Below are positions 2,478 to 24,000 of a stretch of 24,000 nucleotides of DNA, in pieces. The notes beneath the pieces are model-generated. The model saw only the letters and a list, made by a program, of their open reading frames with translations, was not told the DNA's origin and searched no databases. Source of the stretch: a bacterium (lineage in GTDB: Bacteria > Patescibacteriota > Minisyncoccia > Phycocordibacterales > UBA5272); NCBI GenBank assembly GCA_043778525.1, contig JAYWGA010000020.1, forward strand, positions 7,317 through 31,316, in the 5' to 3' direction. The position numbers were made by a program, and so were the translations under genes. How positions within the stretch are numbered: position 1 is the stretch's first letter; the number at the start of each line of letters is the position of its first letter.

Positions 2478-2564
2478 GTTTTGCTTTTTTATTTATCTAA
2501 TCTAATTTTATATAAATAGTCTAGCAGATTTTGTTTTGTTGGTAAATACTGTTAGCTTGTTATG

Positions 2565-2573
2565 TGGTATAAT
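2565..2573 (+). promoter_or_regulatory. Extended -10 promoter (TGGTATAAT) for the RhuM/ATPase operon
   Basis: A perfect TGnTATAAT lies downstream of the track's ATG 2562, which argues that ATG 2586 is the real start and the 5' UTR is about 5 nt. Confidence 0.5.
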
Positions 2574-2585
2574 TATATAAAGTAT

Positions 2586-5754: not shown

Positions 5755-5838
5755 TATTATAAATAGAAATCAGAAGCAGTGTCACGCACTTATCTCAAAG
5801 CGGGAGATCAACAAAACTACTTTAAATTATTTACTTTG

Positions 5839-5920
5839 TGCCCAGGAAAGGACTTGAACCTTCACATCTTGCGATACTAGTTCCTAAGACTAGTGCGTCT
5901 ACCAATTTCGCCACCTGGGC
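5839..5920 (-). tRNA. tRNA-Leu (anticodon UAG), class II with long variable arm
   Basis: The reverse complement reads GCCCAGG-TG-GCG-AAATTGGTAGA-CGC-A-CTAGT-CTTAGGA-ACTAG-TATCGCAAGATGT-GAAGG-TTCAAGT-CCTTT-CCTGGGC-A. This is a perfect cloverleaf with anticodon TAG and no encoded CCA. Confidence 0.9.
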
Positions 5921-7562: not shown

Positions 7563-9071
7563 TTATACTATTTTTTTGATTATTAGCTGCAAAGTGTCGC
7601 CCTCGGCTATGTCATACTTTGAGTCGATCATGAGACCGCAGTCATTGCCTTCTTTTACTTCGTCTACTTCTTGTTTGAAAGATTGTAGCTCTATTATTTT
7701 ACCTTTACCTATTATGGTTTCTTTGCGCATAATGCGTATGGTGCCATGATTTTTGAGATATCCTTCAAATACCTTTCCTCCGACTACTTGTGAAGTTTTG
7801 CTTCTATTAAATACGCGTATGATCTTCAAAGATCCAGCCACTTCTTCTATCTCGGTCTTTGGACGGGCAGCTTCTGCGTAGACACTCAGCCATTCGCTCA
7901 TTTTGTAAATGATGTCAAAGCTATTTATTTTTACTTTTAGTCTGTCAGCAGTCTCGATAGCCTTTTTATCTATACCAGTATGAAAAGATATGAGGGCGCA
8001 AGTCTTGTCTATGCTCGCCATACTCACATCCTTTTCCATCACTAGGCCTACATCTTTTTGTATTATTTTAAATCGCACTCCATCTATTTTGATAGCCAGT
8101 ATTTCTTTTTCTATAGCCTCGAGACTACCGTAGGTGTCAGCTTTTATTATTATAGGCAGAGCAAAGTCCTCAGTAAAATTAAAATCGTCAGAAAAAATAT
8201 TTCCATTTTTGATAGCTTGCGCAAAAATACTTGCAGCATCTTCGGCATCTCGTTTTTTGTCATGTGCAGTGAAGGTCTTTCCTGTTTCTGGGACTTTATT
8301 AAAGCCAGTTATTTTTATAGGCTCCCCAGCACTTGCCTCTTTTATAGTTTTGCCTAAAAAGTTTTCCATTATACGTGTAGGCGAGGTCGCGTCTTCTACT
8401 TGTATGGTAGAGCCCGCGTGCACCTTTCCTTTTTTTACTATCAAGGTCGCCGAGATACCTCTTTTGCTATCTACAAATGACTCTAAGATGACACCTGAGC
8501 CTTCTTCATTTGCATCAAATGACAGATCTATTATTTCACTTTGTATCACTATGAGGTCTAGCAGCTCGTCTATATTTGTGCCCATCTTTGCTGAGATACC
8601 GACAAAAGGCACTGTTCCTCCCCAGCCCTCGACAAATATACCAATATCAGATAGAGAGTTTTTTACCATGTCTAGATTTGCACTCGGCTTGTCTATTTTA
8701 TTTATGGCTACTATACAAGGTAGTCCTGATTTTTCTATAGCTTTCCAGCTTTCTTTTGTTTGTGGCTTGGCGCCGTCTTCGGCTGAGACTACTAAGATAG
8801 CGATATCGGCAATATCTACTCCACGCTCGCGCATAGATGAAAAAGCGGCGTGGCCAGGCGTATCTAAAAAGGTGATAGGAGACTCTTTGCCGTCACTCGT
8901 TTTCCAGTTTACCTCGTACGCCGAAATATGCTGAGTGATACCACCAGCCTCGCCGTCTACTACATTACTTTTGCGTATATAGTCCAAAAGACTAGACTTG
9001 CCATGGTCTACATGGCCAACTATAGCTACTATAGGAGCTCTTTTGCTCACATTTTTTACAGGATTTGACAT
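7563..9071 (-). CDS. infB: Translation initiation factor IF-2 (short form, lacks the long N-terminal region)
   Basis: G-domain motifs VAIVGHVDHGKSSLLD (G1), GITQHI, DTPGH (G3), NKID (G4), followed by typical IF-2 domains II-IV. Only 502 aa. Confidence 0.95.
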   Translation of the reverse strand: MSNPVKNVSKRAPIVAIVGHVDHGKSSLLDYIRKSNVVDGEAGGITQHISAYEVNWKTSDGKESPITFLDTPGHAAFSSMRERGVDIADIAILVVSAEDGAKPQTKESWKAIEKSGLPCIVAINKIDKPSANLDMVKNSLSDIGIFVEGWGGTVPFVGISAKMGTNIDELLDLIVIQSEIIDLSFDANEEGSGVILESFVDSKRGISATLIVKKGKVHAGSTIQVEDATSPTRIMENFLGKTIKEASAGEPIKITGFNKVPETGKTFTAHDKKRDAEDAASIFAQAIKNGNIFSDDFNFTEDFALPIIIKADTYGSLEAIEKEILAIKIDGVRFKIIQKDVGLVMEKDVSMASIDKTCALISFHTGIDKKAIETADRLKVKINSFDIIYKMSEWLSVYAEAARPKTEIEEVAGSLKIIRVFNRSKTSQVVGGKVFEGYLKNHGTIRIMRKETIIGKGKIIELQSFKQEVDEVKEGNDCGLMIDSKYDIAEGDTLQLIIKKIV

Positions 9072-9086: not shown

Positions 9087-9101
9087 TAAAAATACTTTTT
9101 T

Positions 9102-9110
9102 TGCTATATT
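9102..9110 (+). promoter_or_regulatory. Extended -10 promoter (TGCTATATT), leaderless-type spacing
   Basis: It ends 7 nt before ATG 9118, the start that is followed by a signal-peptide-like sequence. It is divergent from the infB promoter. Confidence 0.4.
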
Positions 9111-9117
9111 GTATATA

Positions 9118-10197
9118 ATGAAGAGCTTAAAACTTTTTACTTTTATTTTTGCTTTGTTTTTTATACAAAGTGCTAGGGCACTGGATATTTCTAATTTTCA
9201 AAAACATTTGACAGACAAAATAGTAAGCCAGACTTTTTTGGATCCAAAAGAGCAAACCTTTTGTGTTAAGGGGCCAGATTTTGAATTTGCCCAAAATGGC
9301 GCAAAACAAATAGTGCCAGCCTCAGTAGCAAAAATATATACGACCAATTTTGTGCTAGAAAAGCTGGATAAAAATATAGTGTTTGAAACTAAATTAAGAA
9401 TTATAAAAAACGTTTTGTATATAAAAAGTGAAGGCGATCCTACTTTTTCAGAAAAAGAATTATTGGATTTTCTTTTGAAAGAAAAGCTTAAAAACCCAAA
9501 ACTAAAAATAAATAAAATAGTTTATGACAAAAATTTTATCTATGATTTTTCTTTTGATAAAAAATCATTAGAAAATAATTTACAAAAATTTATAGATAAA
9601 AACAAAGAAAGTAAAGAAGATTATTTTGATAAAAAAGTAAAAATAGTGAAAGTATACAAAACTTTAATCGGCAAAAATTTTACGGTCTATAAATCTCCAA
9701 AACTTTTGGAAATAATAAAAGAGATGAATGAATATTCAAATAATAGTATCGCGGTCAATCTTTTAAATAAAGTGGGTGGCCCAAATATGATGATGAATAA
9801 TCTGCGTAAAAAATATGACGTAAATGCGCAGCAAATGTTTTTTAGAAATGGCTCTGGCCTACTGGGCAACTACACCACCTGTGATCTGACTATAAAGGTA
9901 CTCGAAAATATAAATAAAAATGCTAAAGCAAAAAACTTTGAAATAGCAAATGTATTTGATAGTCCAGGTAAAGAAAATACGGCGATGAGAAATATTTTAA
10001 AAGATTATAAATATGATGGCAAAATATATGCCAAAAACGGCTATCTGTATGGCTACAATACCATAGCTGGAGTTTATGAAAATAATGGTAAAAAAGTTTT
10101 TTTCGCTGTGTTTTTAAATTATGCAAATGCTAATGACTATCAAAAGGGTATATCTACAATAGATGAAATGTTGAAAATAATAATTAACAATAATTAA
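9118..10197 (+). CDS. Serine-type D-Ala-D-Ala carboxypeptidase / PBP4-like (peptidase S13-like), secreted
   Basis: Signal peptide MKSLKLFTFIFALFFIQSARA. Penicillin-binding motifs in the correct order: SVAK (SxxK), SNN (SxN) and a KNG (KTG-like) triad. The start was moved from 8998 to 9118, because the track ORF otherwise overlaps infB. Confidence 0.65.
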   Translation: MKSLKLFTFIFALFFIQSARALDISNFQKHLTDKIVSQTFLDPKEQTFCVKGPDFEFAQNGAKQIVPASVAKIYTTNFVLEKLDKNIVFETKLRIIKNVLYIKSEGDPTFSEKELLDFLLKEKLKNPKLKINKIVYDKNFIYDFSFDKKSLENNLQKFIDKNKESKEDYFDKKVKIVKVYKTLIGKNFTVYKSPKLLEIIKEMNEYSNNSIAVNLLNKVGGPNMMMNNLRKKYDVNAQQMFFRNGSGLLGNYTTCDLTIKVLENINKNAKAKNFEIANVFDSPGKENTAMRNILKDYKYDGKIYAKNGYLYGYNTIAGVYENNGKKVFFAVFLNYANANDYQKGISTIDEMLKIIINNN

Positions 10198-11389: not shown

Positions 11390-12412
11390 ATGGGACAGCA
11401 AATAAATATAGTAATAAGTGGTAGGGTGCAGGGGGTAATGTTTCGTCAGTCTGTAAAAAGTTTTGCTGAAGCAAATAATATTTGCGGGTTTGCCGAAAAC
11501 ACGCAAGGCGGTGATGTAAAAATAATAGCTCAAGGAGAGCCAGATGATTTATTGGCGCTTTTTTCTTATTGCCATACTGGTCCACTACTAGCCAAAGTAA
11601 AAAGTATAAAAGGAGAGTGGTCAGAGATAGGGGAAAAGTTTATAGATTTTAAAGTAAAAAGAAATGGAAAAAATATACTAGAAGATCAAATAAATGCCTT
11701 TACAAATCTAGGTAAAGAAATCGTAAATATAAAACAAATACCAAAACACATAGTCATAATACCAGACGGCAGTAGGCGCTGGGCCAAAGAAAAAAAACTG
11801 CCAGAGGTATTTGGGCATAGAGAAGGTGCCAAAAAAATAAAAGAATTTGTAAACTTTTTAGTAAATACCGAAACGGAGCATTTGACCATTTGGGGATTTT
11901 CTACCGAAAACTGGAGTAGGCAGCAAAAAGAAGTGGATAGCTTGATGAAAATATTTTTAAATTCAATAAAAGAAATGGCCTATGAATGTGAAAAGAATAA
12001 AATAAAATTTAGGCATCTAGGCAGAAAGACAGAGCTTTCGCAGGAGGTATTAGACGCTCTTAAAAAACTAGAGACAGACACAGAAAACTATGGTCCAAAA
12101 AATATAAATCTAGCCCTAGATTATGGAGGTCGTGATGAAATAATAAGAGCCATACAAAAAATAAAAAATATAGAGCAAATAGGAAAAATGAACGAAGAAA
12201 ACTTTGGCAAATTGCTCGACACTAAAGATGTGCCAGACCCAGATCTGATAATACGTACTAGTGGCGAAAAGAGGCTCTCGGGCATATTGCCTTGGCAGTC
12301 TACCTATGCCGAGCTTTACTTTACAGACAAGCATTTTCCAGATTTTAATAGAGCTCAGCTGAGTTTGGCGGTAGAGGAATACTCAAGTCGCAAAAGGCGT
12401 CTGGGTAAATAG
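11390..12412 (+). CDS. uppS: Fusion protein: acylphosphatase domain (N) + di-trans,poly-cis-undecaprenyl-diphosphate synthase (C)
   Basis: aa 1-90 carry an acylphosphatase signature (ISGRVQGVMFRQSV...GFAENTQGGDVKIIAQGE). aa about 115-340 carry UppS motifs (IIPDGSRRWA, GHREGA, TIWGFSTENWSR, RTSGEKRLSGILPWQSTYAELYF). Confidence 0.9.
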   Translation: MGQQINIVISGRVQGVMFRQSVKSFAEANNICGFAENTQGGDVKIIAQGEPDDLLALFSYCHTGPLLAKVKSIKGEWSEIGEKFIDFKVKRNGKNILEDQINAFTNLGKEIVNIKQIPKHIVIIPDGSRRWAKEKKLPEVFGHREGAKKIKEFVNFLVNTETEHLTIWGFSTENWSRQQKEVDSLMKIFLNSIKEMAYECEKNKIKFRHLGRKTELSQEVLDALKKLETDTENYGPKNINLALDYGGRDEIIRAIQKIKNIEQIGKMNEENFGKLLDTKDVPDPDLIIRTSGEKRLSGILPWQSTYAELYFTDKHFPDFNRAQLSLAVEEYSSRKRRLGK

Positions 12413-14156: not shown

Positions 14157-14570
14157 ATGCTAAAGTTTTATTTTAAAGTGCGCAAAAGGGTGACTAGTGT
14201 TAGGAAGCGGACACGAAAGAAAAATAGTATAAAAAGCCAAAAAGACTATATAGAGCATAAGGAAATGGCGAGAGTGCTAGTCCTGGAGAGGCTAGAGTAT
14301 TTTAATCAATTTTACAATTTAAAATGGGGCAGGGTATCTATTAAAAATGTAAAGACGCGCTGGGGCAGCTGCTCTTCTAAAGGCAATCTCAACTTTAGCT
14401 ACAAAATAATAAAGCTAGCGCCGCATCTAGCTGACTATATTATAGTGCATGAGCTATGCCATCTGAAGGAGATGAATCACGCGCAAGCTTTTTGGGACTT
14501 GGTAGCACAGCAAATGCCAGAGTACAAGGCATTAAAAAATGAGCTGGCTAAAATTAAACTATATAACTAA
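14157..14570 (+). CDS. YgjP-like (DUF45 / M48-SprT-like) zinc metallopeptidase, short form
   Basis: Matches the DUF45 signature ending in the HExxH metal site: RWGSCSSKGNLNFSYKIIKLAPHLADYIIVHELCHLKEMNHAQAFWDLV. 137 aa. Confidence 0.8.
   Translation: MLKFYFKVRKRVTSVRKRTRKKNSIKSQKDYIEHKEMARVLVLERLEYFNQFYNLKWGRVSIKNVKTRWGSCSSKGNLNFSYKIIKLAPHLADYIIVHELCHLKEMNHAQAFWDLVAQQMPEYKALKNELAKIKLYN
14529..14556 (+). repeat. Left copy of a perfect 28-bp direct repeat (gcattaaaaaatgagctggctaaaatta), inside the 3' end of the ygjP-like gene
   Basis: Identical letter-for-letter to 15072-15099. It encodes ALKNELAKI in the ygjP-like reading frame. Confidence 0.95.
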
Positions 14571-14594: not shown

Positions 14595-14978
14595 ATGAAA
14601 GATTTTAATGCATGGAGCGAGGTCAAAAAATCACAAGACGATAAAATTAGAAATGTATTTTGCAAAGAGCGTGATATTTGGTGGTCTACACTTGGACTAA
14701 ATATTGGCGATGAGGAAGATGGTAAGGGTGAGTTATTTGAAAGACCGATCATTGTAATTAAAAAATTTAATAATAATATATTTTGGGGATGTGCTTTGTC
14801 TACTAAAATAAAAGATAATAATAAGTATTATGTAAAAGTTAAAACTAAAGAAGGTGTGCAGTCTGTGATAATTTCTCAGCTGCGCTTATACGATACAAAA
14901 AGACTTGGAGAAAAAATAGATGTAGCAAGTAAAGAAGATTTTGAAAAAATAAAAACAGCAATTAAAAATTTGCTGTAA
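14595..14978 (+). CDS. PemK/MazF-family toxin-like protein (orphan; no adjacent antitoxin ORF seen)
   Basis: RDIWWSTLGLNIGDEEDGKGELFERPIIVIKKF matches the MazF/PemK core 'GeIwwv.lG.n.G.Eq.G..RPvlVi'. Later SQLRLYDTKRLGEKI matches 'sQirtid..Rl..kiG'. 127 aa. Confidence 0.7.
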   Translation: MKDFNAWSEVKKSQDDKIRNVFCKERDIWWSTLGLNIGDEEDGKGELFERPIIVIKKFNNNIFWGCALSTKIKDNNKYYVKVKTKEGVQSVIISQLRLYDTKRLGEKIDVASKEDFEKIKTAIKNLL

Positions 14979-15010: not shown

Positions 15011-15071
15011 AAAGCCCGGAGGCATTTGTATCTATAATATTATACGAAAACAATAAATAAGTCAAGGTAAT

Positions 15072-15099
15072 GCATTAAAAAATGAGCTGGCTAAAATTA
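15072..15099 (+). repeat. Right copy of the 28-bp direct repeat; overlaps the stop codon of the minus-strand deacetylase gene
   Basis: Identical to 14529-14556. Read in the + frame it continues as ALKNELAKIILK-stop (TAG at 15108-15110), which looks like the ancestral 3' end of the ygjP-like gene. Confidence 0.95.
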
Positions 15100-15994: not shown

Positions 15995-16753
15995 TTATAA
16001 TTTTTTATATTTACCATTTCCTAAAAATTCTATATAATTTTTATCTCTCAGTAATTGTAATTGCTGCCTAAGTTTATCCTTTATGTGTTTGTTTTTAGTA
16101 AATATTTCCTCAAGTCTTGCTTTGTGCTTGTAAATATCTTGAAGTGTAAAATAGTTTTTACACTTGTCTACGATTTTTAAAACTTCAAAAGCCCATCCAC
16201 GTTTTTCTAAATTATCTATTTTAAAATTTTTAGTCTTATTCCAGTTTTCTTTTATAATCTTTTTATCTACGATTTCTCCATTTTTAATTAAAAAGATTTT
16301 TCCAATATCAGGTATTTCAGAATAAAGTATATTGCAACCAATCCAACCAGCCCTTTTAGCCGTATTTGAAAGTGGTTTTCTTTTTTCTATAATATTTTCA
16401 GTAAAAAAGTATTTGGGTATTGCTATCACATCTCTTACTATAAAATTTGCATTATAATTTAGAAAAATGAGATTGGGGTTATTGTTAGAATTAACTCTAT
16501 TTATCATTGTACTGTATGCACCGTCCACAATTTTTTTTGATACCATTCCTTTCTTTGATTTGAGTTCAAATTCTTCTTTACAATTTGAACAGTAAAAATC
16601 TGCGACAGGTGAATTGTTTTCAAATTGAGTTAAATTATTTAGACAGCTAACACAGTATCCGTTTTCTAGATACCAAGGCTCAGTCATCACTCTAGCTTTT
16701 TGTGAAGAGCTTTTGTAATCTGTACTTGTATATTTTTCTAAAGATAATGTCAT
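15995..16753 (-). CDS. dpnC: DpnI-type methylation-dependent type IIM restriction endonuclease (G-m6A-TC specific family)
   Basis: Collinear similarity to my recollection of S. pneumoniae DpnI over the whole length. Shared segments: YKSSSQKARVMTE, YC.SC.N.L..FENN.PVADFYC..C.EEFELKSKKG, DGAY.TM..RV...NNPN, RKPL..TA.RAGWIGCNI, and the C-terminal wHTH end NKHIKDKLRQQLQLLRDKNYIEFLGNGKYKKL. Confidence 0.9.
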   Translation of the reverse strand: MTLSLEKYTSTDYKSSSQKARVMTEPWYLENGYCVSCLNNLTQFENNSPVADFYCSNCKEEFELKSKKGMVSKKIVDGAYSTMINRVNSNNNPNLIFLNYNANFIVRDVIAIPKYFFTENIIEKRKPLSNTAKRAGWIGCNILYSEIPDIGKIFLIKNGEIVDKKIIKENWNKTKNFKIDNLEKRGWAFEVLKIVDKCKNYFTLQDIYKHKARLEEIFTKNKHIKDKLRQQLQLLRDKNYIEFLGNGKYKKL

Positions 16754-16794
16754 TTAAAATTTGTTAGCTTATATTTTTCTCCTATAAATAAATT

Positions 16795-17628
16795 TTATTC
16801 ATAGTCATTGATATTAATTGTATTTAGTTTTTGAAGGCCATATACAGGATCTTCTAAAAATTTTTTGATAAAATACTTACCTTTATTCGTCACTGATATT
16901 TTGTCTTCTTTTTGATCTATTTCTATAATCCCATTACTATGGCAATAGGCTAATATGTCTTTTGGAATTTCGAATTGTACTTCGCCACTAAAATTATTTT
17001 TTTCTTTTACTTTAGCATTTTTTTCATAGTAGGATTCTATAATTTTATCAAACTTATATGAAAAATTAAGCACTTTAAACTTTTGATAATCACGTATCCA
17101 TTGTATCGTGGGATCTGTTTCTTTTATAATCTTCTCTAATTGAGACCTATTTATTTCTGCTGTTTTTTTCTTAACCTCTTCACTTAAGATGGCGTTTTCA
17201 GATTTTATAACCTCAACCTCTTTTTTATTCCGTGCTATCTCAGCGTCTTTATGTTTCGCATATAAAAAATCGTATAAAGATTTTTCATCGAAGCTATTAA
17301 ATTTCTTAAATACTATTGAATAGATGATAGCGCTTATAAAAACTGGAATTAAATATATTGATACATAAATATTTATTTTTTCTAAAAAAAGATAAGTATT
17401 ATTTTTTATAAAATCTGGAAGAGCTGTATACTTACTCCAATTAGAATAAACTAGCTTGTCTGCTATGTCTGCTCTTCCAAAAAATATGTATAGAATAATA
17501 CCTTTATTCCAGAGTATAAAAGATAAAATATAAACTCTAAAAACAGAAGACGTAGGAGGGCTATTTAAAAAATCATACATTAAATCTGCCCAGCTTTTAT
17601 TCTTATCCACAATTTGAGATTCACTCAT
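16795..17628 (-). CDS. Hypothetical membrane protein: 2 predicted TM helices + coiled coil + C-terminal winged-helix-like domain
   Basis: 277 aa. Hydrophobic segments VFRVYILSFILWNKGIILYIFF and IYVSIYLIPVFISAIIYSIVF, then a charged heptad-like stretch (KDAEIARNKKEVEVIKSENAILSEEVKKKTAEINRSQLEKIIKE). The C-terminus ILAYCHSNGIIEIDQKEDKISVTNKGKYFIKKFL resembles a wHTH. It lies 41 nt upstream of dpnC on the same strand. No family recognised. Confidence 0.6.
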   Translation of the reverse strand: MSESQIVDKNKSWADLMYDFLNSPPTSSVFRVYILSFILWNKGIILYIFFGRADIADKLVYSNWSKYTALPDFIKNNTYLFLEKINIYVSIYLIPVFISAIIYSIVFKKFNSFDEKSLYDFLYAKHKDAEIARNKKEVEVIKSENAILSEEVKKKTAEINRSQLEKIIKETDPTIQWIRDYQKFKVLNFSYKFDKIIESYYEKNAKVKEKNNFSGEVQFEIPKDILAYCHSNGIIEIDQKEDKISVTNKGKYFIKKFLEDPVYGLQKLNTININDYE

Positions 17629-17835: not shown

Positions 17836-18207
17836 ATGTCTAATATTAAAACTCTTAAACCTTTTCTACCAGGTCATGATCCCAGAAGAAACATCAAAGG
17901 AAGGATATCAAAACCTGTGAGTGAGACAGGTATCTTTAAAAGGCTTCTTCTCGAACATATGCAAAAGAAAGTAATAGTCGGCGGTGAGGAGAGAAGAATC
18001 ATGGATATTATAGTAGAGAGAATTGTAAATGATGCCGCAAAAGGTAAAGCTAGCGCAATCAAACTTATACTAGATAGAACTGAGGGGAAGAGCCCAACCC
18101 AGAAAGCACTGTTTGCAAAAATGGATGGGGAAGAAAGAGGTGTTGGTGGATATGAAATACCAGAGGAGGATATGGCACGTTTGCGCAAGATTTTTGGAGA
18201 TACGTAA
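17836..18207 (+). CDS. Phage-type small protein, DUF5681-like (small-terminase-associated family look-alike)
   Basis: LKPFLPGHDPRRNIKGR resembles the 'F.pGqSGNP.GRPkG' N-terminal motif. IVNDAAKGKASAIKLILDRTEGKS resembles 'A..Gd..A.kl.ldR.eGKp'. G+C is visibly higher than in flanking genes. The start is set at ATG 17836, 6 nt after the TATACT -10 at 17824-17829. The track used TTG 17821. Confidence 0.5.
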   Translation: MSNIKTLKPFLPGHDPRRNIKGRISKPVSETGIFKRLLLEHMQKKVIVGGEERRIMDIIVERIVNDAAKGKASAIKLILDRTEGKSPTQKALFAKMDGEERGVGGYEIPEEDMARLRKIFGDT

Positions 18208-18297
18208 GAATGTATGAAGTCTTAGAAGATCGACCTTCTTCCCAAGACTTACACACTTTAACTTACTTAAAAATATTTGTGTAGTCCGAGTTATCCA

Positions 18298-18609
18298 CTA
18301 TTTCATTCCGAGATCATTCATGTCTTTATAGAGCTCCTCCCTCTCTTTTTCACTCAAACGCTCTATTTCTAATTTGTTAATTCTTTCTAAACCTTCGTCT
18401 TTTGATAGGCCTATTTTTTCTGAAAGAACAAAAAATCTAAGATCATTTAAGATTTGAAAGACATGGATAAATTTCTTATGTCTTTCAATTGTGTGATTAG
18501 TGCCAAGCCACAGAAGCATAAGAATAAAAACTGCTATATTAGTTTTATCTAAACCAAATATTAAAAATGCGAAAAATATTATAAGAAGCCAATTGTATAT
18601 TGTTTTCAT
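18298..18609 (-). CDS. Small hypothetical 2-TM membrane protein with charged C-terminal helix
   Basis: 103 aa. Hydrophobic segments WLLIIFFAFLIFGL and IAVFILMLLWLG, then an E/K-rich tail. It is preceded by a long structured leader. No homology recognised. Confidence 0.55.
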   Translation of the reverse strand: MKTIYNWLLIIFFAFLIFGLDKTNIAVFILMLLWLGTNHTIERHKKFIHVFQILNDLRFFVLSEKIGLSKDEGLERINKLEIERLSEKEREELYKDMNDLGMK

Positions 18610-18810
18610 AAACTTTGGACGGTTTTATTATGAAGGATCTTGCTAGGTAGCAAAAAGCTCCTAGCCAGTTCCGGCATATCCCGTGAAATATACCCATACC
18701 CGTTTCCAGGTATGACCGTCCAAAGTAGACTCTGACTAGGAGTTTTTTACTTTGGACGGATTTGGCGACCATATCCTATTGCTAGGGGTTAGGTCTCTAT
18801 ATTAAGTTGT
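18610..18810 (-). promoter_or_regulatory. ~200-nt structured 5' leader / candidate cis-regulatory RNA with alternative helices
   Basis: Three copies of a 12-mer: 18612-18623 and 18748-18759 are direct copies, and 18715-18727 is inverted. Internal hairpins lie at 18642-18665 (GCTAGG...CCTAGC), 18695-18714 (CATACC...GGTATG) and 18775-18786 (CCTA-GCAA-TAGG on the minus strand). The region is G+C-rich relative to its surroundings. The proximal 12-mer ends 2 nt from the ATG. Confidence 0.5.
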
Positions 18811-18816
18811 AAATTT

Positions 18817-18825
18817 ATTATACCA
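18817..18825 (-). promoter_or_regulatory. Extended -10 promoter (TGGTATAAT on minus strand) driving the structured leader
   Basis: A perfect TGnTATAAT on the minus strand about 205 nt upstream of ATG 18609. This contrasts with the 6-14 nt spacing seen at other genes in this window. Confidence 0.45.
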
Positions 18826-18882
18826 TTTTACTTGGTATTTTTATACTGTAGCTTACATTCAAACTATTGTGTAGTCATAAAG

Positions 18883-21800
18883 CTAATCACTTAAGAAGTG
18901 GCATAATTGAAGATATCTTTGAAAAAGTTTTTTACACATATCTTTATCATTTATAAGCTCATATGCTTTCATCATATTCACAAAACCTCCGTGTCCAGTA
19001 TTTTTATATAGATGTAGTTCCATCTCTTTTTTCATCCTAAGATCACCTAGAGCAACCGAAACTCCTAAGTAAAAATATGGCGAATTAGAAGTAAACCAAT
19101 CAGTGTGTGGAAAGGTATATCGAGTCAGAGTTTCTGTAAATGGCGCAATATTACCAAGGTACTTAAAGGTTCTGTTCAGGAGTAGCTCCCAAGAATCTCT
19201 ATTTGAAATCACAATTCCATTTTTATAATCTTCTAATTTTTTATAAAATCTTTTGATTTTTGCCTTGTTGGTCAATCCAATCAAAATCTTATGTAAATCT
19301 TTGTTAGATATTTTATTTGTATCATCACTATTATTTTTCTCATCAAACTCAACATTCACTGTTTTATTATATTTATTACAAAGCTCAATGTAAGAAACTT
19401 TTAAATCCTTATAGTCTATATCTCTAAGGAAATAGGTTATGCCTTCTGTTTTCATCTCTTCAACTAAGTTGTAGGCAATTTCAAATGCAGCCTTCTTGTC
19501 CTCTTCGGAATATATTGGTGATTTTGACACCTCTACATAAACTTTAATCTTATGCTCATAACTGTCAGAGTTTGGTTTGTTATCGTGATTATAATCTTGC
19601 CTGTACTCGAGAATACCCTCTTTAATCTCATCAAGATCAGTACCGATTCTCACCTTGCCCAATAAGATGTATGTATTAGCCTGATTGTTATAATTTCTGT
19701 AACCCTTATCCTTGATTAAAGTCTTTCTTAATTCATTTGCAAATGAAATATCAAATTTTGAGGCTAACTCAATAACATTGTAAGGTCCTTTCCATGTCAC
19801 AGCCCCATCTGTAAAACTTGAAACATGGAGAGTGAGTTCAAAAATTTCAGATAAGTACTTCTTTATATTTTCAGTAGTCTCACAGTTATTTCTTATGAGA
19901 ATTTCTAAGGAGTCCACTAGCTGATGACTGACCAAGGAATCTTTTCTCCATCCATGCCTTAGAACACTTTCTTTTAAACCTTTTACAAAGTATTCTCTGG
20001 CTTTTTGTTGGTCAATTTTTGAATAAAATAATGATAGAGAAAAACAATCATTAACTAAGGATTGATAATCATCAAATTTTTTGAGCTGGACTTCAATTTT
20101 ATTTAAATCAGTCTGATTAATTAACTTATCAAACAGTTCTTTGTTTATAGATACTAATTTGTAGTAAAAACTCCAAGGAATTATGCCTGATTCTGGTCCT
20201 AGTAACTTTTCCTTTAGAATAAATAGGTCTTCAACCTTTATAGTGGTTACAAGCGACTTACTAAAGATCTGCGCCCAAAGGAAAGAGATATCTGTTTTTA
20301 GATAGCGATCAAGTCTGTCATCTCTCTCTTTTATATAAGAAAAATAATTTCTTAACACGAGCCCAATTGTAGATTTAGTTTTAATAATATTTATATATGA
20401 GTCAAAAAGTGCTGAGTATAGTTCAAGCTCATCTAAGTATTTAAAATTATCATTCGGGTCATTATTTATTTGGCTAAATTTATTTTCATTTAAAGCATAT
20501 GAAATTATTGAAAACTTATGTGGAATGTTATACATATGCCAATCCACCTTCCTTTCGTTTCTCGTTTTTACCAAAAGTTGTTTTAGTAAAGTAGTCTCTT
20601 CATCATTAAGACTCAATCCAAAGTATGTCTTGTAAAATGAGATGTGGTAGTTTTCTTCCCCGAAGGTTACGTTTTCTAGAATTAAACGTTTCTTGATCAA
20701 ATTTTGTATCTTTCTATTTACTAAAAGTGTATTAATTCCATCGAATGACAAGAGCACTCCTAGTAAGGCGTTAAACTCAAAAGTGTCTAACTTGTTTAAG
20801 TTACTAATTAAAAACTTATCATCAACTGATAAAATTGCATAATAAAAAGAGTTTATTAATTTCTCCTTATTGTTTTCTCTTGAAAAACTTTTATCATTCT
20901 CATTCTCGTAAAATTTATAATTTACGCGAATTTGATCTTCCAAAACCTTTGAGGCACTACGTTTTTTTATAACAATCAATATATAAATAAAGTCTGACCA
21001 ATGTTGCCAAAACGGATCTGTAACATGGGTATTTTCACTTTTGTTTTTGAAAAAATCCTTCTCGTGGAATATATCTTGAATTTTAGATATGTGAGTAATT
21101 ATTTTCTGCGAAAACTCTTTTTTACCGCTCTTCCAAAAAATAACAGCATTCTCTATCATTGGTCCGATAGAGCTCCAAGCTCCAGATAACTTGTCATTTA
21201 TTTTATAGTCATTTTTATCCTTATCCCATGCATCAAAAGTTTTATTTAAATAGTCTAAATCCAAAAAAAACATCTTTTTCATTTTAAAACTATCACTTTC
21301 CAACAATTCTTCCATCACCCCAGGCTCTTGATTTGCAAGTGCGGGAATAAATTCTGAAGAATTATGATAATAAGCATCATCAACTCCGTATCCAGTATGA
21401 TTGCCAAGATATACATCGAGTAAATTTATATCAAGTAATCCCACAATATCATTATTTTTTTCATAACATTTTCTTAAATACTTTAAGAAGTATTGTTCGA
21501 AAAAGTCACGATTAGAGAGAACATCTGTACGACGTAGTATAAATGGATCTTTTTCATATTCTAATTTTAATCTCTGTATAAAGAAAAACTCTTGATACCT
21601 TCTGTGTCGATAGATATAGTCGAGTCTCGTTTCATTATCTAAATAACTATTTTCAAAAAATAGATCAGTGAGATAGTTTAATATCTCATTTGTCGAGTTG
21701 TAATCCGCCCTAGGAAAGATGCTAGCAATAATGTCTTGAAGTTCTGATTTCGGTAATCTAAACTGAAATTTCTGATAGGAGCGAAAGGATATCTCTTGAT

Positions 21801-23148
21801 TCAGAGTAAGTATTTTTTCTGGTTTCTCATCCAAAATATTTAAAGTCTCAATATTTTTCTTATGATCAGGGGAATACAGAAGAATCTGCACATTCTCTTC
21901 AATTAAATCAGCAACTGTACTTTTCTCATTTAGTTCTTCTATGGTATCCCACAGTAATTTTATAAATAAAATATCCACTATCTCAGAGATTAGTAATTTA
22001 TTATTTTTCTTAAGTTTGCTTAGGTATTTATCTTTTATCTTGTTGTTTTTACTCTTAAAGTAAAGATCGATATAAGTATTATCTAAGCTTGAAAAGCAAA
22101 AATGCTCAGCCTTAGGTAAGTAAACTGCAGCTCTTGTTTTATTAGAATTACCAGATCGACAAGATATAATAATTTTTTTGGTTGTACTTAATTGTTCTAG
22201 GTTTCTTATGTAAAAAAGTGTCTGATCTGCCTTTTCTGGACTCAACTCGTCGAGACCATCAAATATATAAATGAAATCAAGTTTCTTGTTTCTAACCGAG
22301 AAATCATTTTGCCTATCCCTTATAAGACCCTCCAGATTTTCATTCACGCAATCTTTAAGATTAATAATCATGGGGATTGCTTTGTTCTGTGCCCACACTG
22401 CCAACATCTCTTTTTTGTTTTTCTTATTTAATCCTGAAAAATCTCTAAAAAGAGCGTGTGAAAAAATACTCTTACCAGAACCTGGATGTCCTAGCAGTAA
22501 AAATACCTTTTGTTTTCTTGAAAGAATGCTTTTAACTGGATCCACCATTATTTTGTTGTTACTAGACAGTGGTAACTTAAGATATCCTTCTGACTGAATA
22601 AATGTTTGTATGCTTAAATTAGAGTCATTTTTAATAAAAGAGTAATTATCAGCTTCTCCAAAGTAGATCTGTCCCAAGTCCAAATTACCTGGTTGATTTA
22701 ATGAAATTGAGAAATTTCCAGGATCAAACCAAGATATTTCAATCTTTAATTCTTTAGCAGAGTCAATTAATACCTGCTCTTCAGATGAAACTGTAGTACT
22801 TTTTTTACTACTTTCACTTCGTAATTTATTCACATAAAAAATTACATTATTAAGTTTTGGGTGCTTAGCCTTAGCTTTTCTTAAACCATCCTCCAAGCTT
22901 TTATAATTAATATTTGATTCAAAAAATTTTGACTGAAAACCGATAACTCTTTTACCAACAGAAACTGGAGGCTTCTCTATACCTGTTTGATTTCGATAAC
23001 CAGAAATTCCATCTGATATTTTATAAGTTCTACAAAACAGAAAATAACAAAGTTGCTCAAAAGAACCCTCTGGGTCGCCATTTTCTAACCTAAACTTGTC
23101 GAAGTTAACATTTACTATATTTTCAGTCTGTTTTTTAGTTGTAGACAT
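18883..23148 (-). CDS. STAND/NACHT-type NTPase (NLR-like/Avs-like) with N-terminal Mrr-like PD-(D/E)xK nuclease module and ~1000-aa helical C-terminal region
   Basis: N-terminus: FEQLCYFLFCRTY...QTGIEKPPVSVGKRVIGFQSKFF resembles Mrr_cat 'FE.l...ll...G...D.GID.....vQcKr'. Walker A LLLGHPGSGKS (aa 217-227; nt 22468-22491 for GHPGSGKS). NACHT-style Walker B IYIFDGLDEL (aa 293-302). Then IIISCRSG, followed by about 1000 aa of largely helical-looking sequence with no motif recognised. The start codon lies 3 nt after the hsdS stop. Confidence 0.85.
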   Translation of the reverse strand: MSTTKKQTENIVNVNFDKFRLENGDPEGSFEQLCYFLFCRTYKISDGISGYRNQTGIEKPPVSVGKRVIGFQSKFFESNINYKSLEDGLRKAKAKHPKLNNVIFYVNKLRSESSKKSTTVSSEEQVLIDSAKELKIEISWFDPGNFSISLNQPGNLDLGQIYFGEADNYSFIKNDSNLSIQTFIQSEGYLKLPLSSNNKIMVDPVKSILSRKQKVFLLLGHPGSGKSIFSHALFRDFSGLNKKNKKEMLAVWAQNKAIPMIINLKDCVNENLEGLIRDRQNDFSVRNKKLDFIYIFDGLDELSPEKADQTLFYIRNLEQLSTTKKIIISCRSGNSNKTRAAVYLPKAEHFCFSSLDNTYIDLYFKSKNNKIKDKYLSKLKKNNKLLISEIVDILFIKLLWDTIEELNEKSTVADLIEENVQILLYSPDHKKNIETLNILDEKPEKILTLNQEISFRSYQKFQFRLPKSELQDIIASIFPRADYNSTNEILNYLTDLFFENSYLDNETRLDYIYRHRRYQEFFFIQRLKLEYEKDPFILRRTDVLSNRDFFEQYFLKYLRKCYEKNNDIVGLLDINLLDVYLGNHTGYGVDDAYYHNSSEFIPALANQEPGVMEELLESDSFKMKKMFFLDLDYLNKTFDAWDKDKNDYKINDKLSGAWSSIGPMIENAVIFWKSGKKEFSQKIITHISKIQDIFHEKDFFKNKSENTHVTDPFWQHWSDFIYILIVIKKRSASKVLEDQIRVNYKFYENENDKSFSRENNKEKLINSFYYAILSVDDKFLISNLNKLDTFEFNALLGVLLSFDGINTLLVNRKIQNLIKKRLILENVTFGEENYHISFYKTYFGLSLNDEETTLLKQLLVKTRNERKVDWHMYNIPHKFSIISYALNENKFSQINNDPNDNFKYLDELELYSALFDSYINIIKTKSTIGLVLRNYFSYIKERDDRLDRYLKTDISFLWAQIFSKSLVTTIKVEDLFILKEKLLGPESGIIPWSFYYKLVSINKELFDKLINQTDLNKIEVQLKKFDDYQSLVNDCFSLSLFYSKIDQQKAREYFVKGLKESVLRHGWRKDSLVSHQLVDSLEILIRNNCETTENIKKYLSEIFELTLHVSSFTDGAVTWKGPYNVIELASKFDISFANELRKTLIKDKGYRNYNNQANTYILLGKVRIGTDLDEIKEGILEYRQDYNHDNKPNSDSYEHKIKVYVEVSKSPIYSEEDKKAAFEIAYNLVEEMKTEGITYFLRDIDYKDLKVSYIELCNKYNKTVNVEFDEKNNSDDTNKISNKDLHKILIGLTNKAKIKRFYKKLEDYKNGIVISNRDSWELLLNRTFKYLGNIAPFTETLTRYTFPHTDWFTSNSPYFYLGVSVALGDLRMKKEMELHLYKNTGHGGFVNMMKAYELINDKDMCKKLFQRYLQLCHFLSD

Positions 23149-23151
23149 AAA

Positions 23152-24000
23152 TTATGCAAAAGATTTTGCCATTACAGCATTAAATAACTCATCGACCATT
23201 TGAGTTGATTGAAGCTGCTTCTCTTTTTGAACTTCAATCCCCTTAACTAATTCCGCAAATTTATTTTGTAATTCAATTGGAGACAAAGAGATAATAAGAT
23301 TTTTTATAATAGTCGAATTCCATCCTTCCATGATTGCACCCTTAGAAACATTTCGAGTCTGTTTTCTAACCTCATTGTCAAAAAGTAACGATGCCCACAA
23401 ATAAACAGGGTTCAATCTTGTCTTGTTTGTGGTAATTACGCACAAGTGCTTAGTACTCATGCATTTTGGTAAATCATCTGGAGCAACCACAACTCTACCA
23501 ACAGTTCCCATTATCGTTACCAGTACATCACTAGGGTGAACTTGAAATTTTATAAATTTCTTGAATTTTTCTTCTGGGAGACATCTTTTATATGTCCATC
23601 TAAATTTATTCTTTACTACATTATCTATACCTAAAACAGGGACACCAACCTCTGTAAATTCATGGTGATGCAACTGGCTACCGAAAGGGCCTGTTCTTAT
23701 TGAGCTTTTATCAATGACTAAATTAACAATCTTATCTTTAGGATATGCTTCTTTGCTAAAAAAGTTTTCAAATAAATCAGTTACAAGATCTTCCATTTTC
23801 TTATTTGCCTCAGCTCTCTTATTTTTCAAATCCTCAGCTTCTTTAATAAGAGAAACGATTCGTTTCTGCTCATTCAGATCTGGATTACCTTTTGTATCTG
23901 TTGGAATAGGTACAGTGATTTTTTGTACATACACTTTTGAAATATGTTTAAGTCCTGCACCTTTAAATCCTGTATCTAATATGTGCTTGTTACTTAGTAA
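23152..24000 (-). CDS. hsdS: Type I restriction-modification specificity subunit HsdS, C-terminal part (5' end beyond the window)
   Basis: Central conserved region I.VPIP...EQKRIVSLIKEAEDLKNKR followed by a target-recognition domain (GPFGS...VPVLGIDNV...) and a C-terminal conserved helix (PIELQNKFAELVKGIEVQKEKQ). The frame stays open upstream of the track's GTG through position 24000 (LLSNKHILDTGFKGAGLKHISK...). Confidence 0.9.
   Translation of the reverse strand, partial: LLSNKHILDTGFKGAGLKHISKVYVQKITVPIPTDTKGNPDLNEQKRIVSLIKEAEDLKNKRAEANKKMEDLVTDLFENFFSKEAYPKDKIVNLVIDKSSIRTGPFGSQLHHHEFTEVGVPVLGIDNVVKNKFRWTYKRCLPEEKFKKFIKFQVHPSDVLVTIMGTVGRVVVAPDDLPKCMSTKHLCVITTNKTRLNPVYLWASLLFDNEVRKQTRNVSKGAIMEGWNSTIIKNLIISLSPIELQNKFAELVKGIEVQKEKQLQSTQMVDELFNAVMAKSFA

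What the first reader, a model, noticed from the sequence alone, without database searches (positions are those of the whole stretch)
18883..24000. Giant NACHT/STAND NTPase with Mrr-like nuclease head, wired directly behind a type I R-M specificity gene
The 1421-aa ORF starts 3 nt after the hsdS stop on the same strand (TAA at 23152-23154, ATG at 23146-23148). It is therefore almost certainly co-transcribed with the type I R-M genes, in the position PrrC occupies in the classical prr locus. Three parts are visible. The first is an N-terminal restriction-endonuclease-like module (E58 in GIE, Q72-x-K74). The second is a NACHT-style P-loop (GHPGSGKS ... IFDGLDEL). The third is about 1000 aa of unrecognised, helical-looking C-terminal sequence that could act as a sensor. 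Bacterial NLR/Avs proteins are known antiphage sensors. A version embedded as a restriction-linked ORF would be a distinct configuration, and I cannot assign its huge sensor domain to any family. A possible function is a backup that fires when the R-M system is neutralised.
Basis: partly seen in the sequence, partly recalled or inferred. Interest (0 to 1): 0.8.

Follow-up and report, generated by a model that had tools for sequence, protein, structure and literature searches.

The report
Avs-type immune sensor behind restriction operon
The 1421-residue gene is a previously uncharacterised member of the known bacterial "antiviral STAND" (NLR-like) immune receptors, with an Avs4-type DNA-cutting head, and its position as the last gene of a type I restriction operon looks like ordinary defence-gene clustering, not a conserved partnership.

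Summary
A 1421-aa ORF (18883-23148, minus strand) starts 3 nt after the hsdS stop. On the full contig it is the fourth gene of a tight hsdR-hsdM-hsdS-ORF operon.

Its three parts are these:
- An N-terminal nuclease homologous to the Mrr-like effector of E. coli Avs4 (PDB 8dgf). The equivalents of E49/Q63/K65 are E58 and K74, invariant across homologues, and Q72, conserved in at least 90%.
- A NACHT-type STAND NTPase with conserved Walker A and B motifs. Structural matches are Avs4, then NLRP3, NLRC4 and NAIP.
- An 860-aa all-helical solenoid sensor found only in this family. Its only significant solved-structure match is the Avs3 sensor.

It is not Avs4 itself, because only the first ~235 residues match. 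About 120-200 relatives at 25-50% identity keep the same architecture. They occur across many phyla, often in candidate-phyla-radiation bacteria.

In about 50 homologue contexts there is no conserved partner. Two loci sit behind type I genes, one behind type III, two within about 5 kb of type II systems and one behind a lone methylase. The rest lie next to AbiE, Fic, Gabija or recombinase genes, or stand alone.

The "backup for a neutralised R-M system" idea has no support. The best reading is a stand-alone phage-protein sensor that oligomerises and cuts DNA, carried on a serine-recombinase island.

The parts
18883..23148 (-). Complete 1421-aa ORF (including the stop codon): an Avs-type antiviral STAND protein.
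   Evidence: ORF list and translation. An identical protein, P0001, is found on 6 metagenome contigs.
22654..23115 (-). N-terminal effector, aa ~12-165: an Avs4-type Mrr-like PD-(D/E)xK nuclease. E58 and K74 are invariant and Q72 is nearly invariant.
   Evidence: PADLOC Avs4 8.3e-35. NCBIfam Avs4 1.3e-37, model positions 5-227 only. PDB 8dgf_A by phmmer 5.4e-17 and by family profile 7.9e-35. Foldseek top hit 8dgf, 9.3e-15. Residue conservation. The model shows an alpha-beta-beta-alpha-beta-alpha-beta core.
21469..22551 (-). STAND NTPase module, aa ~200-560: a NACHT-like nucleotide-binding domain followed by helical and winged-helix subdomains.
   Evidence: Pfam NACHT matches 35 of 36 family members (best 1.3e-8; the query scores 19.7 bits, below the 26.7-bit cutoff). 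Foldseek hits to NLRP3, NLRC4 and NAIP at 1e-8 to 1e-6. K226, D297, D300, E301, R331 and H515 are invariant.
22468..22491 (-). Walker A motif, GHPGSGKS (aa 220-227).
   Evidence: Read from the translation. G220, G223, G225 and K226 are invariant in the 36-sequence N-terminal alignment; K226 is also invariant across 55 sequences.
22246..22272 (-). Walker B region, IYIFDGLDE (aa 293-301).
   Evidence: Read from the translation. D297, G298, L299, D300 and E301 are invariant.
18886..21468 (-). C-terminal sensor, aa 561-1421: an all-alpha solenoid specific to this family.
   Evidence: AlphaFold2 model with pLDDT 87.5 and pTM 0.80, about 50 helices and no strands. The only significant PDB match is SeAvs3, 8dgc_B (E 1.3e-4, TMq 0.45, 868 columns); other matches are generic solenoids with TM below 0.2. 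The sensor profile finds no PDB sequence. It finds only 197 of 1.84 billion representative proteins, almost all with the same architecture.
23149..23151 (-). 3-nt spacer (TTT) between the hsdS stop and the ORF start. There is no Shine-Dalgarno sequence.
   Evidence: Sequence. Upstream regions compared.
23152..24000 (-). 3' part of hsdS (the type I specificity subunit), cut by the window edge. The full gene is 376 aa and is preceded by hsdM and hsdR beyond the window.
   Evidence: PADLOC Specificity_I 8.9e-56. Pfam Methylase_S. Full operon on L001 and L002.
18694..18715 (-). Terminator-like hairpin about 170 nt downstream of the ORF stop. It is a possible operon end.
   Evidence: Consensus scan. 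The number of such sites is not above the shuffle expectation, so this is weak evidence.

Best explanation
The ORF encodes a single-polypeptide antiviral STAND (Avs, bacterial NLR-like) pattern-recognition receptor from an uncharacterised family.

Inferred mechanism, by analogy with the solved Avs3 and Avs4 complexes:
1. The 860-aa C-terminal helical solenoid binds a conserved phage protein made during infection.
2. Binding releases autoinhibition of the NACHT-type NTPase, which, with ATP bound, drives oligomerisation (tetramers in Avs3, Avs4 and Avs7).
3. Oligomerisation brings the N-terminal Avs4-type Mrr-like nuclease domains together.
4. The assembled nuclease degrades double-stranded DNA indiscriminately, aborting the infection.

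Shown here: homology of the head to the EcAvs4 nuclease with the catalytic triad conserved; a NACHT-like NTPase with intact motifs; a confidently folded, family-specific solenoid sensor; and defence-island and mobile-element neighbourhoods.

Inferred only: the trigger, oligomerisation, DNA cleavage and the abortive outcome. The trigger is unknown. The only structural lead is a resemblance to the terminase-binding Avs3 sensor.

The gene is the fourth cistron of an hsdR-hsdM-hsdS operon. The operon lies on an island with a large serine recombinase in a probable Patescibacteria genome. The R-M linkage is best read as co-transcription and co-mobilisation of independent, layered defences, not functional coupling.
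For: - N-terminal aa 12-236 match Avs4 models and the EcAvs4 structure sequence.
- E58/Q72/K74 align with EcAvs4 E49/Q63/K65 (alignment). E58 and K74 are invariant and Q72 nearly so.
- The N-terminal model (pLDDT 82.8) matches 8dgf first, then the NLRP3, NLRC4 and NAIP NACHT modules.
- NACHT Pfam hits occur in 35 of 36 members.
- Walker A and B, R331 and H515 are invariant.
- The sensor model has pLDDT 87.5 and its only significant PDB hit is SeAvs3.
- The family keeps one fixed architecture: 63 of 66 sensor-bearing proteins of at least 1100 aa carry the same effector and all 66 the same NTPase.
- Neighbours of homologues are heterogeneous defence or mobile genes. They include type I, II and III R-M, AbiE, Fic, GajB, HEPN, RhuM, serine recombinases and integrases, with no conserved partner.
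- The taxonomic spread is wide and patchy and includes one archaeon, as expected for a horizontally moving defence gene.
- In other samples of the same population, hsdR carries a frameshift or hsdS is broken while this protein stays 100% identical.
- The literature describes Avs proteins as a modular effector-NTPase-sensor design, with at least 90 families that sense core phage proteins (PMC13581612).
Against: - There is no experimental evidence for any step.
- The query's own NACHT Pfam score is below the gathering threshold (19.7 vs 26.7 bits).
- Pfam Mrr_cat is not hit at E <= 1.
- The Avs3 sensor match is modest (TMq 0.45, rmsd 12.7 A, 11% identity). It may reflect only a shared solenoid build.
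- The 3-nt junction, and several other cases where a homologue is the tight last gene behind R-M genes (L010, L016, L014), leave room for some functional link.
- No named Avs or bNACHT model in PADLOC 2.0 or NCBIfam 20 covers the NTPase or the sensor. Family membership therefore rests on architecture and fold.
Confidence: 0.72

Rival explanations
1. R-M-coupled guard. The protein monitors the type I R-M complex or senses phage anti-restriction proteins such as Ocr or ArdA mimics. It fires its nuclease only when restriction is neutralised.
For: - The ORF is the fourth cistron, 3 nt after hsdS.
- When homologues have a tightly coupled upstream gene on the same strand, it is often an R-M gene: type I hsdR in L010 (gap 6 nt), type III mod and res in L016 (gap 10 nt), and an N6/N4 methylase in L014 (gap 22 nt).
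- Type II R-M systems lie 0.5-5 kb upstream in L085 and L087.
- Precedents for retaliation modules inside type I operons exist (PrrC from my own knowledge; T1RM-embedded TgvAB in PMC11411939).
Against: - The hsdS junction is unique to this genome among about 50 contexts.
- The R-M partners differ in type and gene order, so there is no common protein to guard.
- Most homologues have no R-M gene within two genes on either side and sit alone or next to AbiE, Fic, GajB or recombinases.
- The sensor is equally conserved whatever the neighbour.
- No domain is shared with PrrC or RloC (there is no AAA_13 domain and no anticodon-nuclease domain).
- Variants with a frameshifted hsdR or a broken hsdS keep an identical NACHT gene.
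- GC content of the gene (30.5%) differs from hsdR and hsdM (36%), hinting at separate acquisition.
Confidence: 0.07
2. It is a bona fide Avs4 (AVAST type 4): a diverged orthologue that recognises the phage portal protein as EcAvs4 does.
For: The best named hit in every library is Avs4. The head and linker up to the Walker A motif are homologous, at 33% identity to the 1579-aa P0118, whose length and N-terminal-only match suggest an Avs4.
Against: - The NCBIfam Avs4 score is 128.6 bits against a cutoff of 1500, and only model positions 5-227 of 1579 align.
- There is no sequence similarity after aa ~236.
- The sensor model does not retrieve 8dgf at all and instead retrieves Avs3, 8dgc.
- Effector domains are known to be shuffled between Avs families (PMC13581612).
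Confidence: 0.05
3. It is a non-defence STAND protein or a decaying gene: for example a regulatory or housekeeping NTPase, or an inactive remnant carried along with the island.
For: STAND clades switch between defence and non-defence roles (PMC13581612). No named defence model covers the NTPase or the sensor.
Against: - The 4.3-kb ORF is intact, with invariant nuclease and NTPase catalytic residues across relatives at 25-50% identity.
- A nuclease effector is shared with a proven defence protein.
- The neighbourhoods are defence and mobile-element contexts.
- The protein is identical across several samples.
Confidence: 0.05

Closest known systems
EcAvs4 (AVAST type 4; PDB 8dgf; NCBIfam NF041815)
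   Same: The N-terminal Mrr-like nuclease and the linker up to the Walker A motif are homologous (profile E 7.9e-35), and E/QxK is conserved at aligned positions. The overall order is the same: effector, STAND NTPase, large helical sensor. It is a single-gene system.
   Different: The NTPase and sensor show no detectable sequence similarity. The protein is 1421 aa against 1587 aa. The sensor fold does not retrieve Avs4. The full-length model score is far below the cutoff (128.6 vs 1500 bits). The trigger is unknown, whereas Avs4 senses the portal protein.
SeAvs3 (PDB 8dgc), a sensor of the large terminase subunit
   Same: It is the only significant solved-structure match of the 860-aa sensor (Foldseek E 1.3e-4, probability 1.00, TMq 0.45 over 868 columns). 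It has the same tripartite Avs logic with a PD-(D/E)xK-type nuclease head.
   Different: Identity is 11% and rmsd 12.7 A, with no sequence-profile match. The Avs3 head is a Cap4-type nuclease, not Mrr-like. Avs3 is about 2000 aa. Terminase sensing by this protein is only a lead.
The wider antiviral STAND / bacterial NLR-like families (Avs1-24 and bNACHT; Lee et al. 2026, PMC13581612)
   Same: Modular effector-NTPase-sensor build; a mostly clade-specific TPR-like helical sensor; defence-island context; a NACHT-like NTPase structurally close to NLRP3, NLRC4 and NAIP.
   Different: I could not place it in any named family. PADLOC 2.0 and NCBIfam 20 models match only the head. The paper's clade tables are not held, so it may or may not be among its 589 clades and 684 sensor clusters.
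PrrC / RloC and other genes embedded in type I R-M operons (for example TgvAB, PMC11411939)
   Same: It sits directly after hsdS in a type I R-M operon and is probably co-transcribed with it. It is likely an abortive-infection type of second layer.
   Different: There is no homology: no AAA_13 ATPase and no anticodon nuclease. It lies at the 3' end of the operon, not between hsdS and hsdR. The association with type I R-M is not conserved in the family. No evidence exists for physical or regulatory coupling.

Membership tests
Avs4 (AVAST type 4) | N-terminal Mrr-like nuclease homologous to EcAvs4, with the catalytic E...QxK motif. | tested here: met
   E58, Q72 and K74 align to EcAvs4 E49, Q63 and K65. 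E58 and K74 are invariant and Q72 nearly so.
Avs4 (AVAST type 4) | Full-length match to the Avs4 equivalog model (NTPase plus portal-binding sensor). | tested here: not met
   NF041815 scores 128.6 bits against a cutoff of 1500, and only positions 5-227 of 1579 align. PADLOC Avs4 aligns positions 2-231 of 1570. The sensor model does not retrieve 8dgf.
Avs4 (AVAST type 4) | Activation by the phage portal protein. | not testable with these tools
   This needs co-expression or binding assays.
Antiviral STAND (Avs) / bacterial NLR-like receptors in general | Tripartite architecture: N-terminal effector, central STAND NTPase, and a large C-terminal repeat sensor (>=400 aa). | tested here: met
   Effector aa 12-165, NTPase aa ~200-560, and an 860-aa solenoid sensor.
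Antiviral STAND (Avs) / bacterial NLR-like receptors in general | Intact NTPase motifs: Walker A lysine, Walker B acidic residues, sensor arginine and winged-helix histidine. | tested here: met
   K226, D297, D300, E301, R331 and H515 are invariant in 55 sequences. Assigning R331 and H515 to the sensor-1 and WHD roles is an inference from their position.
Antiviral STAND (Avs) / bacterial NLR-like receptors in general | Genomic association with defence systems or mobile elements. | tested here: met
   Neighbours include R-M types I, II and III, AbiE, Fic, GajB, HEPN, RhuM, serine recombinases and integrases. No formal enrichment statistic was computed.
Antiviral STAND (Avs) / bacterial NLR-like receptors in general | Phage protection through trigger-induced oligomerisation and effector activation. 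| not testable with these tools
   This needs experiments.
NACHT clade of STAND NTPases (Pfam PF05729) | Significant match to the NACHT profile. | tested here: inconclusive
   The query scores 17.8-19.7 bits (E 8e-4 to 3e-3), below the 26.7-bit gathering score. However, 35 of 36 family members hit NACHT at E <= 0.01, with a best of 1.3e-8.
NACHT clade of STAND NTPases (Pfam PF05729) | NBD-HD1-WHD fold like that of animal NLRs. | tested here: met
   Foldseek hits to NLRP3 (7alv, 3.5e-8, rmsd 5.0 A over 381 columns), NLRC4 (4kxf), NAIP (8fvu) and NLRP9.
Mrr catalytic domain (Pfam PF04471 Mrr_cat) | Profile match to Mrr_cat. | tested here: not met
   There is no Mrr_cat hit at E <= 1 for the whole protein, and Mrr_cat is not among the 25 listed of 28 families hit by the 36 N-termini. 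'Mrr-like' rests on the Avs4 depositors' label and the E...QxK motif.
PrrC / RloC-type R-M-linked anticodon nucleases | Gene located inside a type I R-M operon next to hsdS. | tested here: met
   It lies at the operon's 3' end, after hsdS.
PrrC / RloC-type R-M-linked anticodon nucleases | ABC/AAA_13-type ATPase plus a C-terminal anticodon nuclease domain. | tested here: not met
   No AAA_13 hit. The NTPase is NACHT-like. An unrelated AAA_13 protein lies at 3601-5754.
PrrC / RloC-type R-M-linked anticodon nucleases | Association with type I R-M conserved across homologues. | tested here: not met
   Only the window and L010 among about 50 contexts lie next to type I genes.

The most novel reading that the evidence does not exclude
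The family is repeatedly captured as the tightly coupled last gene of R-M operons: type I twice, type III once and a lone methylase once. One reading the evidence does not exclude is that its sensor recognises phage anti-restriction proteins, or another consequence of R-M evasion. That would make it an NLR-like 'guard' of restriction systems, not a sensor of a structural phage protein. A milder novel reading is that this is an undescribed Avs family that serves the tiny genomes of candidate-phyla-radiation bacteria and travels on serine-recombinase cassettes.
Probability: 0.06. Interest if true: 0.75.

Novelty: new member of a known kind. Interest (0 to 1): 0.33.

Why it matters
If the reading is right, this is one more family in the large and fast-growing catalogue of bacterial NLR-like phage sensors. 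Three points are of interest:
- It shows the Avs4 nuclease head recombined with a different NTPase clade and a private sensor whose trigger is unknown.
- It is common in Patescibacteria (CPR) genomes, whose immune repertoires are poorly studied.
- Here it forms a compact, mobile, three-layer defence island: type I R-M, the Avs protein and a DpnI-like methyl-directed enzyme.

It does not, on present evidence, reveal a new principle of R-M-coupled immunity. The practical value is a well-defined candidate for a trigger screen, with obvious mutants to test (E58A, K74A and K226A).

Tried and rejected
I split it into residues 1-600 and 561-1421.
- The sensor profile against PDB sequences gave only noise.
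- I tried to place the family in the Lee et al. 2026 clade and sensor-cluster tables, but no supplements are held. Gao 2022 and Kibby 2023 are not held. Searching six homologue accession numbers in the literature found nothing.
- The promoter and terminator scan of 18000-24000 gave counts at or below the shuffle expectation. It therefore gives no evidence for or against an internal promoter.
- phmmer with this locus's HsdR, HsdM and HsdS against all homologue loci found no second hsdRMS triad.
- I rejected the idea that the family is phage-borne: only 2 IMG/VR contigs carry it.
- I rejected sensor shuffling onto other architectures.
- The weak NCBIfam hit to EruA (E 0.011, Walker B region only) was disregarded as P-loop noise.
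Full report
**Observation.** The window holds a 1421-aa ORF on the minus strand at 18883-23148. Read on that strand, the junction is GCA TAA TTT ATG. The stop of the upstream gene is at 23154-23152 and the ATG at 23148-23146, three bases later. The upstream partial ORF is a type I specificity subunit (PADLOC Specificity_I 8.9e-56; Pfam Methylase_S).

An identical protein (P0001) occurs on six metagenome contigs. The longer ones show what lies beyond the window edge. The order is hsdR (769 aa), hsdM (492 aa), hsdS (376 aa) and this ORF, all on one strand with gaps of 4, 1 and 3 nt. A large serine recombinase is transcribed divergently upstream of hsdR.

**Anatomy, head.** Residues 12-236 match Avs4 models (PADLOC 8.3e-35; NCBIfam NF041815 1.3e-37), but only model positions ~2-231 of ~1575. 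The sole PDB sequence hit is EcAvs4 (8dgf_A), at 5.4e-17 with the single sequence and 7.9e-35 with a 36-member family profile, covering chain residues 1-249. In that alignment E58, Q72 and K74 pair with EcAvs4 E49, Q63 and K65. E58 and K74 are invariant and Q72 nearly invariant across 55 homologues. From memory, Q63/K65 are the residues mutated to inactivate the EcAvs4 Mrr-like nuclease. I could not retrieve that paper to confirm it. Pfam Mrr_cat itself is not hit.

**Anatomy, NTPase.** The Pfam NACHT match of the query is sub-threshold (17.8-19.7 bits), but 35 of 36 family members hit NACHT, with a best E-value of 1.3e-8. An AlphaFold2 model of residues 1-600 (pLDDT 82.8, pTM 0.81) retrieves 8dgf first (9.3e-15). 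It then retrieves the NACHT modules of NLRP3, NLRC4, NAIP and NLRP9 (1e-8 to 1e-6, rmsd ~5 A over ~400 columns). K226, D297, D300, E301, R331 and H515 are invariant.

**Anatomy, sensor.** Residues 561-1421 fold confidently (pLDDT 87.5, pTM 0.80) into an all-helical solenoid of about 50 helices. The only significant solved-structure match is SeAvs3 bound to terminase (8dgc_B: E 1.3e-4, probability 1.00, TMq 0.45 over 868 columns). Everything else is generic solenoid such as exportins and importins, with TM below 0.2. Avs4 is not retrieved. A sequence profile of the sensor finds nothing in the PDB.

**The family.** A word-indexed search found 117 relatives at 27-50% identity, nearly all 1330-1445 aa. 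A sensor-profile search that read all 1.84 billion cluster representatives found only 197 proteins. All were fragments or proteins with the sensor starting near residue 550. Of 66 such proteins of at least 1100 aa, 63 have the same effector and all 66 the same NTPase. Two of the three exceptions look N-terminally truncated, and P0355 may carry a swapped head. P0118 (1579 aa), probably an Avs4 proper judging by its length and N-terminal-only match, shares only the first ~235 residues at 33% identity.

This is therefore a distinct, rare, fixed-architecture family that borrowed the Avs4 head. Hosts are scattered: many candidate-phyla-radiation lineages, Acidobacteriota, Bacteroidota, Bacillota, Gammaproteobacteria, Myxococcota and one Methanomassiliicoccales archaeon. 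Only two IMG/VR viral contigs carry it. The window's own organism is probably a Patescibacterium. Its YchF is 64-66% identical to proteins named as Patescibacteria or Minisyncoccia, although closer hits are unnamed.

**Is the R-M junction conserved?** I examined 41 full-length loci from species-representative genomes and nine further homologue proteins looked up with pre-annotated genes. Three of those nine duplicate genome loci (L006=L011, L007/L008=L030, L009=L035). phmmer with this locus's HsdR, HsdM and HsdS found no second hsdRMS triad next to a homologue.

About nine homologues have a tightly coupled same-strand upstream gene (gap of 25 nt or less), and these partners differ:
- type I hsdR of the EcoR124 kind (L010, gap 6 nt; a different type I family and gene order from the window);
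- type III mod and res (L016, gap 10 nt);
- an N6/N4 methylase (L014);
- a Methyltransf_32 protein (L015);
- AbiEii (L018, overlapping);
- Fic (L027);
- RlaP nucleotidyltransferases (L029);
- DUF6602 (L083);
- an unknown 991-aa protein (L059).

Pfam and PADLOC scans of the two nearest genes on each side of all 41 loci showed no family in more than 3-4 of 146 neighbours. The mix was typical of defence islands and mobile elements: methylases, ResIII, GajB, AbiE, HEPN, RhuM, serine recombinases and integrases. Type II R-M systems lie 0.5-5 kb upstream in L085 and L087. Large serine recombinases flank the gene in the window's contig and in three of its closest relatives. P0059 sits in a decayed prophage or satellite-like island.

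The hsdS-STAND junction is thus unique to this genome. Association with defence genes in general, including R-M of every type, is clear. A specific partnership is not.

**Within-population variation.** In other samples of the same population, a 1-nt indel splits hsdR (L004). hsdS is disrupted, or the assembly ends, at one position (L005, L003). The STAND protein stays 100% identical throughout. GC content steps down along the operon: hsdR and hsdM 36%, hsdS 33%, this ORF 30.5%. That is weakly consistent with separate acquisition.

**Transcription and translation.** No promoter-like signal above the shuffle expectation lies between hsdS and the ORF, and a terminator-like hairpin follows the ORF by about 170 nt. 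Both are weak evidence. This genome lacks Shine-Dalgarno sequences almost everywhere, so the missing ribosome-binding site at the junction is not informative. Co-transcription is likely on geometry alone.

**Mechanism.** By homology of the head to EcAvs4, by the NLR-like NTPase fold, and by the general model established for Avs3, Avs4 and Avs7 (PMC13581612), the most likely mechanism has three steps. The sensor binds a conserved phage protein. Nucleotide-dependent oligomerisation follows. The Mrr-like nuclease domains then assemble and degrade DNA, causing abortive infection. The trigger is unknown. The Avs3-like sensor resemblance makes the large terminase a first candidate (my estimate about 0.2), but Avs sensors with different folds can share targets and similar folds can differ.

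Defence or abortive-infection genes embedded in type I operons are already well known (TgvAB and Payne's embedded candidates in PMC11411939; PrrC and RloC from my own knowledge).

**Comparison and novelty.** The protein works like an Avs and passes the architectural, motif, fold and context tests for that superfamily. It fails the membership test for Avs4 proper: 128.6 bits against a 1500-bit cutoff, and neither the sensor nor the NTPase matches. It shares nothing with PrrC or RloC beyond position. No named model in PADLOC 2.0 (2023) or NCBIfam 20 (2026) covers its NTPase or sensor. Lee et al. 2026 catalogue 589 STAND clades and 684 sensor clusters, and I could not check their tables.

I therefore rate it a new (uncharacterised) member of a known kind, with interest 0.33. 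It is solid and testable but conceptually expected, given the known modularity of Avs proteins and the known clustering of defences with R-M operons.

Noticed in passing
window 2562-5754 (+), next to tRNA-Leu at 5838-5920: A RhuM-family gene (PADLOC candidate PDC-S05, 5.6e-143) overlaps by 8 nt a 717-aa AAA_13 ATPase (PDC-S06, 3.1e-36). AAA_13 is the ATPase family I recall as including PrrC and RloC. This forms a second small putative defence islet in the window.
   Followed up: partly
window 15995-17628 (-): A DpnI-like methyl-directed restriction enzyme (Pfam DpnI 8.7e-73; PADLOC mREase_II 8.7e-93) is preceded by a 277-aa ORF with no family hit. At 27% GC this is the lowest-GC gene measured in the locus. 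Together with the type I R-M system and the STAND protein, it makes a three-layer island.
   Followed up: partly
window, start regions of 19 genes: A Shine-Dalgarno motif was found upstream of only 1 of 19 genes. TATAAT-like boxes sit 6-15 nt before many start codons (def, HAD, YchF, YgjP, polysaccharide deacetylase). This suggests leaderless or SD-independent translation in this probable Patescibacteria genome.
   Followed up: no
window ~14526-14556 and ~15069-15099 (L001 18593-18623 and 18050-18080): A 31-nt direct repeat (97% identical) flanks the PemK/MazF-like toxin gene (14595-14978). It may be a footprint of cassette insertion. No antitoxin was identified.
   Followed up: no
L004 2830-5138; L005 6624-7728; L003 start; L001 ~9092-9127 (in hsdS, just beyond the window edge): Other samples of the same population show hsdR split by a 1-nt indel. 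They also show hsdS disrupted, or the assembly broken, at one fixed position. The STAND protein remains identical. This could be strain heterogeneity or hsdS variation.
   Followed up: partly
L001 3622-4947; L082 4538-5719; L083 1792-3525; L084 3859-5484: A large serine recombinase (Resolvase, Recombinase and Zn ribbon domains) lies within a few kb of the family gene in the window's contig and in three of its closest relatives. This suggests a small recombinase-mobilised cassette. tRNA-Gln lies at L001 2225-2296.
   Followed up: partly
window 11390-12412 (+) and 7563-9071 (-): Undecaprenyl-diphosphate synthase is fused to an N-terminal acylphosphatase domain (340 aa). IF-2 is only 502 aa. Both are unusual gene forms, perhaps typical of reduced CPR genomes.
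   Followed up: no
L031 1669-8859; L047 4292-9070: Giant ORFs of 2396 aa and 1592 aa lie just upstream of the family gene in a Chlorobiota MAG and in Clostridium collagenovorans. They were not annotated.
   Followed up: no
P0355 (1352 aa); L057 (Methanomassiliicoccales MAG): P0355 carries the family's NTPase and sensor but has no match to the Mrr-like head, so it may be an effector swap. One homologue is archaeal.
   Followed up: no
L086 3867-5188; L083 6158-6997; L006 7070-7867: Other upstream neighbours of homologues are a Prok-JAB plus ThiF (E1-like) pair, a DUF6602 protein with a 3-nt gap to the STAND gene, and a Hypoth_Ymh protein. All are poorly characterised and may be defence-linked.
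   Followed up: no
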